DNA of 64,000 nucleotides, from positions 2,045 to 66,044 of the forward strand of contig JAZNVL010000060.1 of the NCBI GenBank assembly GCA_045592785.1, in the 5' to 3' direction. The notes under the pieces are model-generated. The model was not told the origin of the DNA and searched no databases. It saw only the letters and a list, made by a program, of their open reading frames with translations. Below are positions 8,838-11,905 of the stretch, in pieces (within the stretch, counting starts at the first letter, position 1; each line of letters opens with the position of its first letter). The stretch is from Victivallales bacterium (lineage in GTDB: Bacteria; Verrucomicrobiota; Lentisphaeria; Victivallales; UBA1829). The translations under genes and the position numbers were made by a program.

Positions 8838-10828
8838 TCCTCCTTGGCTTCGAGACCGGGGATTTTTTTCAGGGCTGCGCCGAATTTACAATAGTTGACT
8901 TTTACGCCGTCGTCAAGGTCAATGGCGATCTTTTGCTGTGCCAGAGGGAAGATGACATCACGCTCGTAGTCTTCCAGTTCGGCGAGCTGAGCGGTGTATT
9001 TGTCGATCTGCTTCAAATTCCGGGTCTTATCGGCGTTGTTGATGTCGGTACGGTTGTTTTCTTCAATGAGGTGTTTGATGCGGGTGCTGATCTTGGTCAT
9101 CAACTCCCGGAGATATTCATTGAGAACGATGCTGACGGTATCAGGCGTGTAGCGGTGCAGATAGATCAGGGCATTGAAAGAACCTTTCGGAGAACTGAAA
9201 AGCCAGTAGATGGGGCGTTTTTTGTACCGTTGGATGTGTTCTTTGTAGAAATCCTTGACAAAGTATTTGCGGATATCTTTACCCAGCACCGCTTCAATAA
9301 AGTCCATATTGGCAGTGAGGTTTTCTTCTCCAAAGGTCAACGCAACAAAAGCTTTGAATTGAGTTACGATATCATCAAAGAACCATTCTTCATCCAGTAT
9401 CGGCAATATGCCATCCCGATCCATAATAAAGTGTTTATTCTCTCCGATAACGGGATAGAAAGAGGCATAAGACGATGTTAATTGCTGCTGTCCGTCATTC
9501 GCAGAAAATGAAACCATTGCTGGATCCTGCGAAAAAATATTTGAGCCAGTCACAGTTGTTTCATAGATAATCAGGTCTTCTTCCTGACCGTTGGATTGAT
9601 TGGCAAGGATCAAGCCTGATTTTTCAGGCGAGTATCTCCCCATCAAACAACCAACAGCGTAGGAGATGAATTCTTTGATCGTATCTGAAAGCAGCCTGTC
9701 TTCCAACTCTTTATTGTAAGGAAAATTCGCAGACAATACCGGATATGCTTCTGTGGTAGCAATACCATTGGAAGAACATTCGCAAATACTGTAAACATTG
9801 TCAATAACCTGCAACTGAGATTTTTCTCCTGTAACAGCTGAAATGTGCGAAATTGTAGATGTACTGGATTTATCAAGCGTTTTGCCATATCTGTACCACG
9901 GATTACAAGTCAATGTGATTTCATCCCAAGGCACGTCAGAAGTCAATTCATCCTGTAATCCATAAGCATCTATAAAAATGCGATTATTGCTCATTTCAAG
10001 CTGACGCATCTTTTCACAATCTTCAGTCCATTTTCTGCGGACTGAATCGTAAATACTCCAAATCGGAGTCTGTTTTACCCAACGGTCGCTATTATACTCT
10101 GCGATCAATGGATTTTTCTGAAAATCCCAAGAAGTTTCATAAGAATCCCAATTGTTTTTAGAAGATTTTACGCATTTTTCAGCATTACTTCCCGCGAAAT
10201 CAGCTACAGAGTCGCAAACAGGCAATCTTCCAACAACATCAGCACCAGTATTTATTGTTGGATTAATTGTTTCCAATGCGTAGTTAAATACTTTGGTGCT
10301 CATATAGGCAAGGTATTTCATCATTTCATTTGCATTATGTGGGAAAAGACTTGCTGCAGCATGATCAAATAAAAAACCTTTTCCATAATATCTGCAATGA
10401 AATTTTCCCGATGTAATAGCAGACCAACTTATTGCCGGACGGTAATATAAATCAATATATGTTGTCCTCGGGCGATGAAATAACGCAGATAGCCGCCATT
10501 TTATAATGTACTCGTTATCCCCATACCAACGTCTGAAATCGCCACCTTTTTTACAAGGGACATATTGTTTGTCTGATTTTTCAAACTCTTGGTTATTCGC
10601 AAAATTAAAAGCAATCTCTGAGCAATCGACCTCATACCAATAACGCATAAAGCGATCATTGTCTCCTGTCGATAATCCAGAACGGATTATTGCTAAATTT
10701 TCAAACTTTTTATTATTTGCAAAGCAATTTGTCAACTTTTCTGCCCAATACGCAATCGGGCTGCCGGGGATTTTCTTAAAATCCTCAGCAGACACGCGGA
10801 AAAAGTTTTTCGATTTATCTTTAGTCAT
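8834..10828 (-). CDS. pglX: PglX C-terminal half as a separate ORF
   Basis: Starts [28 protein letters not shown]...[17 protein letters not shown]. In full-length PglX/Eco57I-like methyltransferases this segment directly follows the methyltransferase lobe. No methyltransferase motifs are present in this ORF. Its ATG overlaps the upstream stop (ATGA). Confidence 0.85.
   Translation of the reverse strand: [664 protein letters not shown]
10783..10828. repeat. Direct repeat copy 1 (functional 5' end of pglX(C))
   Basis: cctcagcagacacgcggaaaaagtttttcgatttatctttagtcat. On the minus strand it encodes [15 protein letters not shown]. Confidence 0.9.
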
Positions 10829-11853
10829 TTTAAATTACCCTCAGAAATATTTTTATTGATCCAAACAGGGGTATCTGAATACGTAATAGTTTGAGTCTCT
10901 CCATCTATGGATATGTTCTCTATTTCATGAAGAGATACTGAACTCGTATGGTTGCATTTGGAAATAATAGAAGCAACTTTTATCATGTCTGATAATGTGA
11001 TTTTTTTAGGTGGCATGATATCATATAAGTCTTTTCCTGCTCTTGTCAGACGATGCCCAGTTAAAACAATATCATACTTAGATACAATTTTTAAAACATA
11101 ACCTGTTCTGATAAAAAAGATGATATTATTTGAATTTTCAGCTTTTTTACATTGCCTTTCGGCTTTTTGAGGATTGATCAACTCCGCATCTTGTAAAGTC
11201 AAAATATCACTGAACGTACCAGTGGCAGGCTCATCTTCTGCGTTTGTCAACAAAAAGCCTTCACTAATACCAATATTCAATTTTTCAAATAATTGCGCTT
11301 CTTCCCGAGATAATTTCTTCGCCACTTCCAAGGTACGTGGCGAGATGGAATGCGGCTTTTTTGTTTCTTCAACCAACAAATGAGCCCACCATTGCCGCAA
11401 ATCATCATCGTCGATCAACTCAGCTTCAGCCCGCCAGCGATTGAAAAAGGTTTGGTTTATAGGATCTGAAGATATGTTTTCTTCCGGAATTTGTTTTATT
11501 TCAACGCCTGCCGTAAAAATTGCAGCAGCCAAACGTTTTGCTTTCAATATGGAATCTACATTTACAATTTCCCGGCAAAGCATGTCAATACTTGACACTT
11601 CTGGCAAAGAAATCATTTTTTTTGCCGCAATATCGTACCTTGAGATGCCATCTTTAATTTCAGAAGCATCCCTTTCTGCTTGTGCTTCAATTCGTTTAGC
11701 TTCTCCGATCCTTTTTTCAACCAAAGGACCATAAGCTGCATAAAGGATTTTTCCAAATCCCTTATGCGTATCTTTGGTCATCTCGGTAATATCTTCCGCA
11801 GGCTTAGTCAAATCAGCATTGATATCTATTTTAACAGGCGAAATATCACACAT
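10825..11853 (-). CDS. Abi-alpha / DUF2806-DUF4393-like protein (candidate abortive-infection component)
   Basis: The central segment FFNRWRAEAELIDDDDLRQWWAHLLVEETKKPHSISPRTLEVAKKLSREEAQLFEKL matches the pattern I recall for these families (...W..f...a..vsd..mq.lWa.iLa.E...p.s.S.rTl..l..Ls..eA.lF..l). The gene is AT-rich and is flanked by the 46-bp direct repeat. Confidence 0.55.
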   Translation of the reverse strand: MCDISPVKIDINADLTKPAEDITEMTKDTHKGFGKILYAAYGPLVEKRIGEAKRIEAQAERDASEIKDGISRYDIAAKKMISLPEVSSIDMLCREIVNVDSILKAKRLAAAIFTAGVEIKQIPEENISSDPINQTFFNRWRAEAELIDDDDLRQWWAHLLVEETKKPHSISPRTLEVAKKLSREEAQLFEKLNIGISEGFLLTNAEDEPATGTFSDILTLQDAELINPQKAERQCKKAENSNNIIFFIRTGYVLKIVSKYDIVLTGHRLTRAGKDLYDIMPPKKITLSDMIKVASIISKCNHTSSVSLHEIENISIDGETQTITYSDTPVWINKNISEGNLK

Positions 11854-11905
11854 TTTTAGCCTCCGCCGACACCCGGAAAAAGTTTTTCGATTTATCTGTG
11901 GTCAT
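11846..11905 (-). other. 19-codon relic ORF ([19 protein letters not shown]) bridging the 343-aa gene and the Abi-alpha-like gene
   Basis: Its ATG overlaps the upstream stop (ATGA at 11902-11905). Its TGA (11846-11848) lies 3 nt inside the next gene, whose ATG is at 11851-11853. The relic therefore preserves translational coupling. Confidence 0.6.
11860..11905. repeat. Direct repeat copy 2 (orphan duplicate of the pglX(C) 5' end)
   Basis: cctccgccgacacccggaaaaagtttttcgatttatctgtggtcat. 41 of 46 nt are identical to copy 1. On the minus strand it encodes [15 protein letters not shown]. Confidence 0.9.

What the first reader, a model, noticed from the sequence alone, without database searches (positions are those of the whole stretch)
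10783..11905. 46-bp direct repeat of the pglX(C) start flanks the Abi-alpha-like gene, diverged mainly at synonymous sites
- The first 46 nt of pglX(C) (10783-10828, [15 protein letters not shown]) recur at 11860-11905 ([15 protein letters not shown]) with 41/46 identity.
- Four of the five differences are synonymous; the fifth changes K to T.
- Similarity stops abruptly on both sides of each copy.
- The upstream copy survives as a 19-codon relic ORF. Its ATG overlaps the preceding stop, and its stop lies just inside the Abi-alpha-like gene, so translational coupling is preserved.
- This looks like the footprint of cargo exchange by recombination at a conserved pglX(C) 5' segment between diverged loci, not a transposon target duplication.
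- It suggests this junction is a reusable docking site for accessory genes.
Basis: seen in the sequence. Interest (0 to 1): 0.6.

Follow-up and report, generated by a model that had tools for sequence, protein, structure and literature searches.

The report
Recombination scar in split BREX gene
A 46-base copy of the start of a phage-defence gene sits in front of a neighbouring accessory gene as a leftover from a past recombination between two versions of the locus, and it shows how bacteria swap accessory defence genes at one fixed junction inside a BREX system.

Summary
The repeat is real: 10783-10828 and 11860-11905 on the minus strand match at 41/46, with four synonymous differences and one K/T change. 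It lies in a type 1 BREX operon whose pglX is split into a methyltransferase half and a specificity half, with four accessory genes in the gap.

Both parental arrangements exist in other metagenome assemblies.
- In L102-104, u343 is followed directly by a working pglX-C. The window matches this 105/106 up to the last base of the relic.
- In L096, L099, L001 and L105, a u39x-type gene is followed by the DUF2806/Abi gene and then pglX-C. The window matches this from the next base on.

The join is an in-frame GGAG microhomology, and it supplies the Abi gene's ribosome-binding site. The same relic-Abi junction occurs in six arrangement types from independent samples, with four unrelated genes to its left in the five where the left flank is visible. 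So it is inherited, not an artefact or a transposon footprint.

Cargo immediately upstream of pglX-C varies widely. The first 28 codons of pglX-C are identical even at synonymous sites across loci whose other regions are 12-60% diverged. Crossovers therefore fall in this block.

Embedding of defence genes in BREX is already known. The split-gene docking junction and its scar are a new variant.

The parts
11860..11905 (-). Relic copy of the first 46 nt of pglX-C ([15 protein letters not shown]). It matches the functional pglX-C 5' ends of L001, L082, L090, L096, L108 and L110 at 46/46.
11846..11905 (-). Relic ORF of 19 codons plus stop. It is a chimera: 15 codons of pglX-C, then Ala, then the last codons (K-N-V-stop) of a u39x-type gene. 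Its ATG overlaps the u343 stop as ATGA, and its stop lies 8 nt inside the Abi gene.
11860..11864 (-). GGAGG at the relic's 3' end. This is the microhomology breakpoint. It now serves as the Shine-Dalgarno sequence, 6 nt upstream of the Abi ATG at 11853, replacing the native AGGAGA.
10783..10828 (-). Functional copy: the first 46 nt of pglX-C in a rarer allele ([15 protein letters not shown]). It differs from the common allele at 5 sites. L094/95 share the ACTAAA variant.
10745..10828 (-). Conserved 28-codon 5' block of pglX-C (MT.[25 protein letters not shown]). It is nearly invariant across the 120 best split-PglX-C hits and is followed directly by the hypervariable specificity region. It is the inferred crossover zone.
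10825..11853 (-). DUF2806/Abi_alpha-like gene (342 aa), the cargo flanked by the two copies.
8834..10828 (-). pglX-C (664 aa), the specificity half of the split PglX. It covers NF033452 positions 650-1209 and aligns to Salmonella PglX from residue 639 onward.
15284..17221 (-). pglX-N (645 aa), the methyltransferase half. It covers NF033452 positions 1-645 and aligns to Salmonella PglX up to residue 635.
11902..12933 (-). u343, a rare cargo gene with no family match. In L102-104 its 95%-identical homologue sits directly upstream of a working pglX-C.
12930..14228 (-). u432, a coiled-coil cargo gene. Its homologues (u39x, u356) are the usual upstream partner of the Abi gene, with an 8-nt overlap. 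Its native tail is replaced here.
14244..15287 (-). YhcG/DUF1016 PD-(D/E)XK nuclease (PADLOC PDC-S02), the first cargo gene. Its ATG overlaps the pglX-N stop.
7818..8837 (-). RhuM-family gene (PADLOC PDC-S05) embedded between pglX-C and pglZ.
3245..7812 (-). pglZ (5305-7812) and brxL (3245-5293), BREX core genes.
17240..21950 (-). brxC (17240-20737), and brxB (20749-21354) and brxA (21351-21950). The last two are assigned by synteny and length match with relatives.

Best explanation
The 46-bp upstream copy is a recombination scar inside a type 1 BREX operon whose pglX is split into two genes. The gap between the halves serves as a docking bay for accessory defence genes.

**Origin of the scar.** One ancestral event joined two locus types.
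- Type A is ...u343 followed by pglX-C.
- Type B is ...u39x, then the DUF2806/Abi gene, then pglX-C.

The join was an illegitimate, in-frame crossover at a GGAG microhomology. On one side were codons 14-15 of the type-A pglX-C (GCG GAG). On the other were the last codons of the u39x gene (CAG GAG ACT AAA AAT GAG TGA), which also hold the Abi gene's ribosome-binding site.

**Consequences.**
- The first 46 nt of the type-A pglX-C were stranded upstream of Abi.
- They form a short open frame that starts on the stop of the upstream gene and ends on the native stop 8 nt inside Abi.
- Their terminal GGAGG now acts as Abi's Shine-Dalgarno sequence, so the chain of translational coupling through the operon is kept. 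This step is inferred.

**Later history.** The scar was inherited and spread. Because it is identical to the working 5' ends of other pglX-C alleles, it probably served as a 46-nt homology arm that let cargo upstream of it be exchanged without losing Abi. This is inferred from the four unrelated genes found to its left.

**General turnover.** Both cargo and specificity regions turn over through crossovers in the 84-nt conserved 5' block of pglX-C. That block encodes the last conserved segment of the methyltransferase domain, just before the hinge.

**Confidence.** The stated confidence of 0.85 applies to the scar and its recombinational origin. The two inferred steps, coupling through the relic and re-use of the relic as a homology arm, are each about 0.5.
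For: **Shown**
- The repeat and the ORF geometry are as described.
- The split is clean and tiles the PglX model: 1-645 and 650-1209 of NF033452, and PADLOC profile positions 1-619 and 620-1173. It maps to Salmonella PglX between residues 635 and 639. The hinge is at 654-659 and the TRD at 662-849 (PMC11341690).
- Parent A exists in three samples (L102-104). Window 13133-11860 matches L102 at 96.9%, ending exactly at the relic's last base. Identity is 105/106 left of the junction and 13/68 right of it.
- Parent B exists in L096-98, L099-101, L001 and L105-107. L096 matches the window 32/106 left of the junction and 56/70 right of it.
- The junction is the same in the window, L094/95, L081/108/109, L082-85 and L110. 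Four unrelated genes lie to its left: u343, a 119-aa fragment, a Trypsin_2 gene and a 963-aa gene.
- The relic ORF is open in every case, despite up to 9/46 substitutions and 5 amino-acid changes in L110.
- Codon identity at identical residues is 25-26/26 in the first 28 codons among L001, L081, L082, L090, L096 and L099. It is 0.78-0.88 in the conserved C-terminal third and 0.41-0.62 in the specificity region.
- The same specificity region occurs with different upstream cargo (window/L001/L081/L082, and L088/L096). The same Abi gene occurs with a different downstream sequence (window versus L094). L094's working copy is a hybrid of the two alleles.

**Inferred**
- Translational coupling through the relic.
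- Re-use of the relic as a homology arm.
Against: - The sample is small: about 15 arrangement types, mostly short metagenome contigs from a few studies. Frequencies are therefore not reliable.
- No direct evidence shows that 46 nt is enough for homologous recombination in this organism.
- The varied left flanks could also come from repeated illegitimate events, or from movement of a relic-Abi module.
- Synonymous invariance of the 5' block could reflect an RNA-level constraint rather than recombination. In L082, a hairpin pairing the ribosome-binding site with CUUUUUCC has z = -4.06, but three other alleles give z between -1.6 and +0.8.
- The pathway of the founding event is not resolved. It could be a double crossover with linear DNA, a deletion between tandem loci such as those in L014 and L051, or integration of a circle.
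- The balance of synonymous and non-synonymous changes in relics versus working copies is not statistically distinguishable.
Confidence: 0.85

Rival explanations
1. A site-specific or Campbell-type cassette. A circular [46-nt block + Abi] element integrates by a single crossover at any pglX-C 5' block. This creates flanking direct repeats, in the manner of an integron or a phage att site that restores the target gene's end.
For: - Direct repeats flank three different inserts: Abi v1, Abi v2, and the Abi remnant plus SduA_C.
- The left flanks differ between loci.
- L094's working copy is a hybrid allele, as a crossover inside the block would give.
Against: - No integrase or recombinase is present in the operon or among the nine flanking window ORFs scanned.
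- In L096, L099, L001 and L105 the Abi gene's upstream region runs continuously into the u39x gene with no relic. Abi is therefore not a discrete cassette bounded by att sites.
- Only one junction type is seen.
- L094's two copies do not fit a single reciprocal crossover, because both carry the common 3' half.
Confidence: 0.1
2. A functional leader ORF. The 19-codon frame is kept because it is needed to couple Abi translation to the upstream gene, or to regulate it. On this view it is a working part of the operon rather than a passive scar.
For: - The frame is open in all six arrangement types despite up to 9/46 changes.
- Its start overlaps or closely follows the upstream stop, and it ends on the native u39x stop 8 nt inside Abi.
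- Its GGAGG lies at Shine-Dalgarno distance from the Abi ATG.
- This view is compatible with the best explanation and adds to it.
Against: - The peptide sequence is not conserved in L110 or L108.
- Loci without a relic couple Abi directly to u39x, so the relic is not required in general.
- Too few independent lineages are available to show selection on frame integrity.
Confidence: 0.4
3. An in-situ tandem duplication or a transposon target-site duplication, followed by drift.
For: The two copies are direct repeats flanking a 1-kb insert.
Against: - 46 bp is far longer than a target-site duplication (general knowledge of transposition).
- There is no transposase and there are no terminal inverted repeats.
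- The relic is 46/46 identical to working alleles in other loci, while the window's own working copy differs at 5 sites. This is the opposite of what local duplication plus drift of the dead copy would give.
- Both parental arrangements exist elsewhere.
Confidence: 0.03
4. An assembly chimera that joins reads from two strains with different BREX alleles.
For: - The window probably comes from a metagenome-derived assembly.
- The population clearly holds many alleles that share the 46-nt block.
Against: The same relic-Abi-pglX-C order was assembled independently in at least eight samples by different assemblers: L081, L082-85, L094, L095, L108, L109 and L110.
Confidence: 0.02

Closest known systems
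Defence genes embedded within BREX, DISARM, type I RM and Hma systems ('guilt by embedding'; bioRxiv 10.1101/2024.01.29.577857; also the auxiliary effectors in BREX loci of PMC12839542)
   Same: - Accessory defence genes lie in the same orientation inside a BREX operon.
- YhcG/DUF1016 and RhuM match the PADLOC candidate families PDC-S02 and PDC-S05, which were defined from such embedded genes.
   Different: - Term searches of those papers found no mention of a split pglX as the embedding site, of a conserved docking junction, or of how embedded genes are exchanged. The preprint has no occurrence of 'recombination', 'hotspot' or 'PglX', and PMC12839542 has none of 'split'.
- Here the cargo sits inside pglX itself, and a scar records the exchange.
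Type I restriction-modification: separate HsdM and HsdS subunits, and specificity-domain swapping by recombination in conserved hsdS regions (my own knowledge; the PglX C-terminal domain resembles HsdS according to PMC11341690)
   Same: - A methyltransferase and a separate specificity subunit.
- A conserved block abutting a hypervariable TRD.
- Mosaic alleles that imply crossovers in the conserved block.
   Different: - The protein is a PglX, not HsdM/HsdS.
- The repeats are direct, not inverted.
- There is no invertase and there are no silent copies.
- What is exchanged includes whole accessory genes.
Split PglX in Brevibacterium casei and programmed inversions of pglX (PMC9881135)
   Same: - PglX is encoded as two polypeptides.
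- DUF1016 and RhuM genes are enriched next to such pglX genes.
   Different: - That split lies at the C-terminal end of the variable region and serves inversion-based switching by a recombinase.
- This split lies about 20 residues before the hinge, upstream of the TRD, and holds cargo genes.
Integron attI/attC cassettes, and integrative elements that duplicate and restore the end of their target gene
   Same: - Works like them in outcome: one fixed junction collects promoterless genes in one orientation.
- A duplicated gene end flanks the insert.
   Different: - No integrase is present.
- There is no attC-like structure.
- The junction was made by microhomology and is used by ordinary homology. 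It is not a member of this family.

Membership tests
BREX type 1 | Core genes brxA-brxB-brxC-pglX-pglZ-brxL in one operon | tested here: met
   brxC, pglX (two halves), pglZ and brxL have strong PADLOC, Pfam or NCBIfam hits. The window's brxA and brxB ORFs gave no NCBIfam match, so those two are assigned by position, length and synteny with L082 and L096, whose genes carry PF08747 and PF08849.
PglX (NCBIfam NF033452, BREX-1 adenine methyltransferase) | A single polypeptide of about 1200 aa with an N6-MTase domain followed by TRD, spacer and C-terminal region | tested here: not met
   All domains are present but sit on two polypeptides. pglX-N covers 1-645 (693 bits) and pglX-C covers 650-1209 (598 bits), each above the 500-bit cut-off. 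It is a two-subunit variant. The 120 best database hits are nearly all 600-690 aa and start at the same point.
Abi_alpha (PF14337) / DUF2806 (PF10987) | Score above the Pfam gathering threshold | tested here: inconclusive
   DUF2806 scores 54.3 against a cut-off of 24.5, so that is met. Abi_alpha scores 28.6 against a cut-off of 29, just below. Anti-phage function was not tested.
Transposon target-site duplication | Short, initially identical direct repeats flanking an element with terminal inverted repeats and a transposase | tested here: not met
   The repeat is 46 bp with 5 mismatches. No inverted repeats or transposase flank it. The relic equals foreign alleles.
Integron or site-specific gene cassette | A tyrosine recombinase with attI and attC sites bounding each cassette | tested here: not met
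   No recombinase domain was found in any operon ORF or in the nine flanking window ORFs scanned. Other gene junctions in the gap have no copy of the repeat. Abi is contiguous with u39x in relic-free loci.
Programmed-inversion shufflon of pglX or hsdS | Inverted repeats, silent partial gene copies and an adjacent invertase | tested here: not met
   The repeats are direct. tblastn finds no extra pglX fragments in the 64-kb window.

The most novel reading that the evidence does not exclude
The 84-nt 5' block of split pglX-C may be a maintained docking and coupling module rather than just a conserved coding segment. Several features would fit this reading:

- It is invariant even at synonymous sites across loci that are otherwise saturated with change.
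- It carries stop codons in both alternative frames (A-TGA and GA-TAA-A), which terminate whatever cargo gene is placed in front of it.
- It contains a CUUUUUCC stretch able to pair with the upstream ribosome-binding site.

On this reading it would work as a recombinase-free, homology-driven cassette platform. Stranded relic copies would multiply the docking sites, so that cargo is stacked rather than replaced.
Probability: 0.2. Interest if true: 0.7.

Novelty: new variant of a known kind. Interest (0 to 1): 0.5.

Why it matters
Embedding of defence genes inside BREX and RM operons is used to discover new immune systems. How those genes get in and out has not been described in the literature I could search.

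This locus gives a concrete, datable example:
- a fixed junction inside a split pglX;
- both parental arrangements still present in the population;
- a base-precise microhomology join;
- evidence that a short conserved block is where cargo and specificity modules are exchanged.

It also flags a widespread two-subunit form of PglX, with the methyltransferase and the specificity subunit encoded separately. That form could simplify engineering of BREX specificity, and it makes subunit assembly testable.

Tried and rejected
- **Exact look-up of the window's own PglX-C.** It is not on record in the contig index, so the source sample could not be examined.
- **Degenerate DNA pattern for DK[ST]KNFFRVSAE.** It found only 5 stretches in the JGI metagenomes, all working copies, and none in viral contigs. 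No extra relics came from this route.
- **Genome-contig scan.** It returned mostly intact pglX at 35-45% identity. This was useful for showing that the split recurs in other phyla, but not for the relic.
- **RNA folding of the 5' block.** One allele folds strongly (L082, z = -4.06). The window's two copies and L096 do not (z = -1.6, +0.8 and -0.08). There is no consistent structure, so I do not claim one.
- **Single-crossover (Campbell) model.** I tested it against allele patterns, and L094 does not fit.
- **Synonymous versus non-synonymous changes in relics and working copies.** The counts are too few to separate them.
- **Other within-locus repeats in 18 split loci.** None was found at other gene junctions.
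- **Family searches for u432 and u343.** Pfam, PADLOC and NCBIfam gave nothing.
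Full report
**1.

All genes here are on the minus strand. The first 46 nt of the 664-aa ORF 8834-10828 recur at 11905->11860 with 41/46 identity. With one further matching base, the repeat finder reports 47 nt at 89%, the strongest repeat in 3000-22500. The exact 23-nt core occurs twice in the window and in none of 100 shuffles.

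The differences are four synonymous changes and one K/T change. The upstream copy is a 19-codon ORF, [19 protein letters not shown]. Its ATG overlaps the stop of ORF 11902-12933 as ATGA. Its stop lies 8 nt inside ORF 10825-11853.

**2. Context**

The region is a type 1 BREX operon with this gene order:

| Gene | Note |
|---|---|
| brxA, brxB, brxC | core |
| pglX-N | 645 aa |
| YhcG/DUF1016 | PADLOC PDC-S02 |
| u432 | no family match |
| u343 | no family match |
| relic | 19-codon ORF |
| DUF2806/Abi_alpha-like | 342 aa |
| pglX-C | 664 aa |
| RhuM | PADLOC PDC-S05 |
| pglZ, brxL | core |

The two pglX halves tile the PglX models without overlap or loss. They cover NF033452 positions 1-645 and 650-1209, and PADLOC PDLC02521 positions 1-619 and 620-1173.

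Against solved Salmonella PglX (8C45), pglX-N ends at residue 635 and pglX-C starts at residue 639. The published hinge is at residues 654-659 and the TRD at 662-849 (PMC11341690). So the conserved first 28 residues of pglX-C are the last segment of the methyltransferase lobe, and the variable specificity domain begins right after them.

The split form is not a local accident. The 120 best database hits to pglX-C are nearly all 600-690 aa. Almost all of them start MTTDK[ST][22 protein letters not shown] and then diverge sharply.

Most pglX genes found in reference genomes are intact. The same position is split, with cargo in the gap, in Victivallales, Pontiellaceae, Rugamonas and Halomonas loci.

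**3. Cargo varies at the junction**

| Loci | Gene order between pglX-N and pglX-C |
|---|---|
| L001 | u393, Abi |
| L082-85 | YhcG, u435, Trypsin_2, relic, 28-codon Abi remnant, SduA_C |
| L088 | u369, IS (opposite strand), AAA_21/DUF4435 |
| L090 | D12 methylase directly before pglX-C; a toxin-antitoxin-like pair replaces RhuM downstream |
| L096-98 | YhcG, u396, Abi |
| L099-101 | u356, Abi |
| L102-104 | YhcG, u390, u343 |
| L105-107 | p422, Abi |
| L108 | YhcG, u331, Trypsin_2, relic, Abi |
| L110 | 963-aa gene, relic, Abi |
| L002, L031, L048, L065 | Schlafen/AlbA_2, DUF6119, AAA_15 ATPase, UvrD-like helicase with DUF2290, and others |

The last cargo gene usually ends on the TGA inside the ATGA of the pglX-C start. 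In L082 the gene before the relic ends on the TAA in GATAAA, 14 nt in.

**4. Origin of the relic**

A three-way alignment settles this.
- Up to and including GGCGGAGG, the window matches L102 at 105/106. In L102 the same u343 tail runs into a working pglX-C. After the junction the match drops to 13/68.
- From the next base on, the window matches L096 at 56/70. In L096 the u396 gene's tail (…CAG GAG ACT AAA AAT GAG TGA) overlaps the Abi start. Before the junction the match is 32/106.

The only shared sequence at the breakpoint is GGAG, and the join is in frame. The relic ORF is therefore 15 codons of pglX-C, an Ala codon, and then the K-N-(V/E)-stop of the u39x tail. The relic's GGAGG takes the place of Abi's native AGGAGA, at the same distance from the ATG.

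Overall, window 13133-11860 equals L102 2627-3900 at 96.9% and stops exactly at 11860.

**5. The scar is old and shared**

The same GGAGG|CTAAAAATG junction occurs in the following sets:
- the window;
- L094/95, whose Abi is 99% identical to the window's;
- L081/108/109, with a 63%-identical Abi variant;
- L082-85, where Abi is reduced to 28 codons and followed by SduA_C;
- L110.

These come from at least eight independent assemblies, which rules out a chimeric assembly. Four unrelated genes lie to its left: u343, a 119-aa fragment, a Trypsin_2 gene and a 963-aa gene.

Relic sequences differ from the common working allele by 0/46 (window, L082), 1/46 (L094), 3/46 (L081 type) and 9/46 (L110). 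The frame stays open in all of them, and L110 has five amino-acid changes.

L082 shows a second, nested scar. The first 17 or so codons of Abi are stranded in front of SduA_C.

**6. The conserved block as crossover zone**

Codon identity at identical residues differs sharply by region among L001, L081, L082, L090, L096 and L099:

| Region of pglX-C | Codon identity |
|---|---|
| First 28 codons | 25-26 of 26 |
| Conserved C-terminal third | 0.78-0.88 |
| Specificity region | 0.41-0.62 |

At about 0.82 per codon, zero changes in 26 codons has a probability of about 0.006 per pair (my arithmetic). The pairs are not independent, so this is indicative only.

The window's working copy scores 0.80, which is simply background divergence. 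That is why it differs from the relic. The relic carries the widespread allele, identical to six other loci's working starts.

Three further observations point the same way:
- The same specificity region occurs behind different cargo (window, L001, L081 and L082; also L088 and L096).
- The same Abi gene occurs in front of a different downstream sequence (window versus L094).
- L094's working start is a hybrid of the two alleles.

Crossovers must therefore fall within or at the edges of this 84-nt block.

**7. Mechanism: shown and inferred**

Shown:
- the scar;
- its microhomology junction;
- both parental arrangements;
- cargo variation;
- mosaicism around the block.

Inferred:
- The relic ORF keeps termination-reinitiation coupling from u343 into Abi.
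- The relic has since served as a 46-nt homology arm that lets upstream cargo be exchanged while Abi is kept.

The pathway of the founding event is open. It could be a linear double crossover, a deletion between tandem pglX units such as those in L014 and L051, or integration of a circle.

**8. Rivals**

- A recombinase-driven cassette is unlikely. No recombinase was found, and Abi is continuous with u39x in relic-free loci.
- A transposon duplication or a local duplication is contradicted by the allele pattern.
- An RNA-structure constraint on the block is not consistently supported.

**9. Comparison with the literature**

Embedding of defence genes in BREX is known (bioRxiv 10.1101/2024.01.29.577857; PMC12839542). 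DUF1016 and RhuM are known neighbours of variable pglX genes, and a differently placed PglX split has been described (PMC9881135). I found no description of this split position, of the docking junction, or of recombination scars.

**10. Verdict**

It is a new variant of a known kind and is moderately interesting.

Noticed in passing
L099:1030-1584 and L099:18198-18752: A 555-bp direct repeat (97.3%) flanks the whole BREX locus. The upstream copy holds a 96-aa MIT_C ORF, and the downstream copy spans the end of the full-length brxL. This looks like a scar of whole-locus replacement, analogous to the 46-bp relic but on a larger scale.
   Followed up: no
L082:8695-8781: A nested second scar. A 28-codon ORF, MSDISPVKVDIKADLTKPvnkivdtige*, keeps the first 17 or so codons of the Abi gene. 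It is followed by an SduA_C (Shedu-type) gene with its own GGAGAATAAAAATG start.
   Followed up: partly
L094:1447-2700 and L095: The Abi gene here is 99% identical to the window's, but pglX-C is cut off right after the conserved 28-codon block. Unrelated short ORFs and a Transposase_mut fragment follow. The Abi gene is thus flanked by two pglX-C start fragments in a decayed or relocated context.
   Followed up: partly
window 15775-16421 (inside pglX-N): There are several imperfect 7-nt tandem arrays (ACTGACC/AGTGGCT type) and a 39-nt repeat of 2.4 copies at 16328-16421. There is also a 21-nt inverted repeat, 15980-16000 against 16305-16325. The segment 16279-16421 is missing from the alignments to L001, L082 and L088, and pglX-N length ranges from 596 to 756 aa among relatives. 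This is a variable insert of unknown meaning.
   Followed up: partly
L014 and L051 (genome contigs): Two complete pglX genes lie in tandem within one BREX locus, in an Anaerolineae MAG and in Rhodobacter flavimaris.
   Followed up: no
L088:2524-4084 and L088:6976-8154: An AAA_15 ATPase plus a 177-aa gene are embedded between brxC and pglX-N. A DDE transposase sits on the opposite strand inside the pglX gap.
   Followed up: no
window 42-1403 and 23143-24105: The BREX operon has two notable neighbours. One is a 453-aa ORF with a weak Piwi-domain hit (23.7 bits, below the cut-off). The other is a DUF4357-containing ORF. Together they suggest a wider defence island.
   Followed up: no
L082:9984-10037: In this allele the pglX-C ribosome-binding site (CCGGAGGAG) is predicted to pair with CUUUUUCCGG inside the 46-nt block (-37.9 kcal/mol, z = -4.06). 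Other alleles do not fold this way.
   Followed up: partly
P0122, P0127, P0149 versus window 11782-11853: Abi homologues that are only 47-67% identical overall to the window's Abi share a near-identical N-terminus (M[CS]DISPVKIDINADLTKPAEDIT). This hints at mosaicism at the Abi 5' end as well.
   Followed up: no
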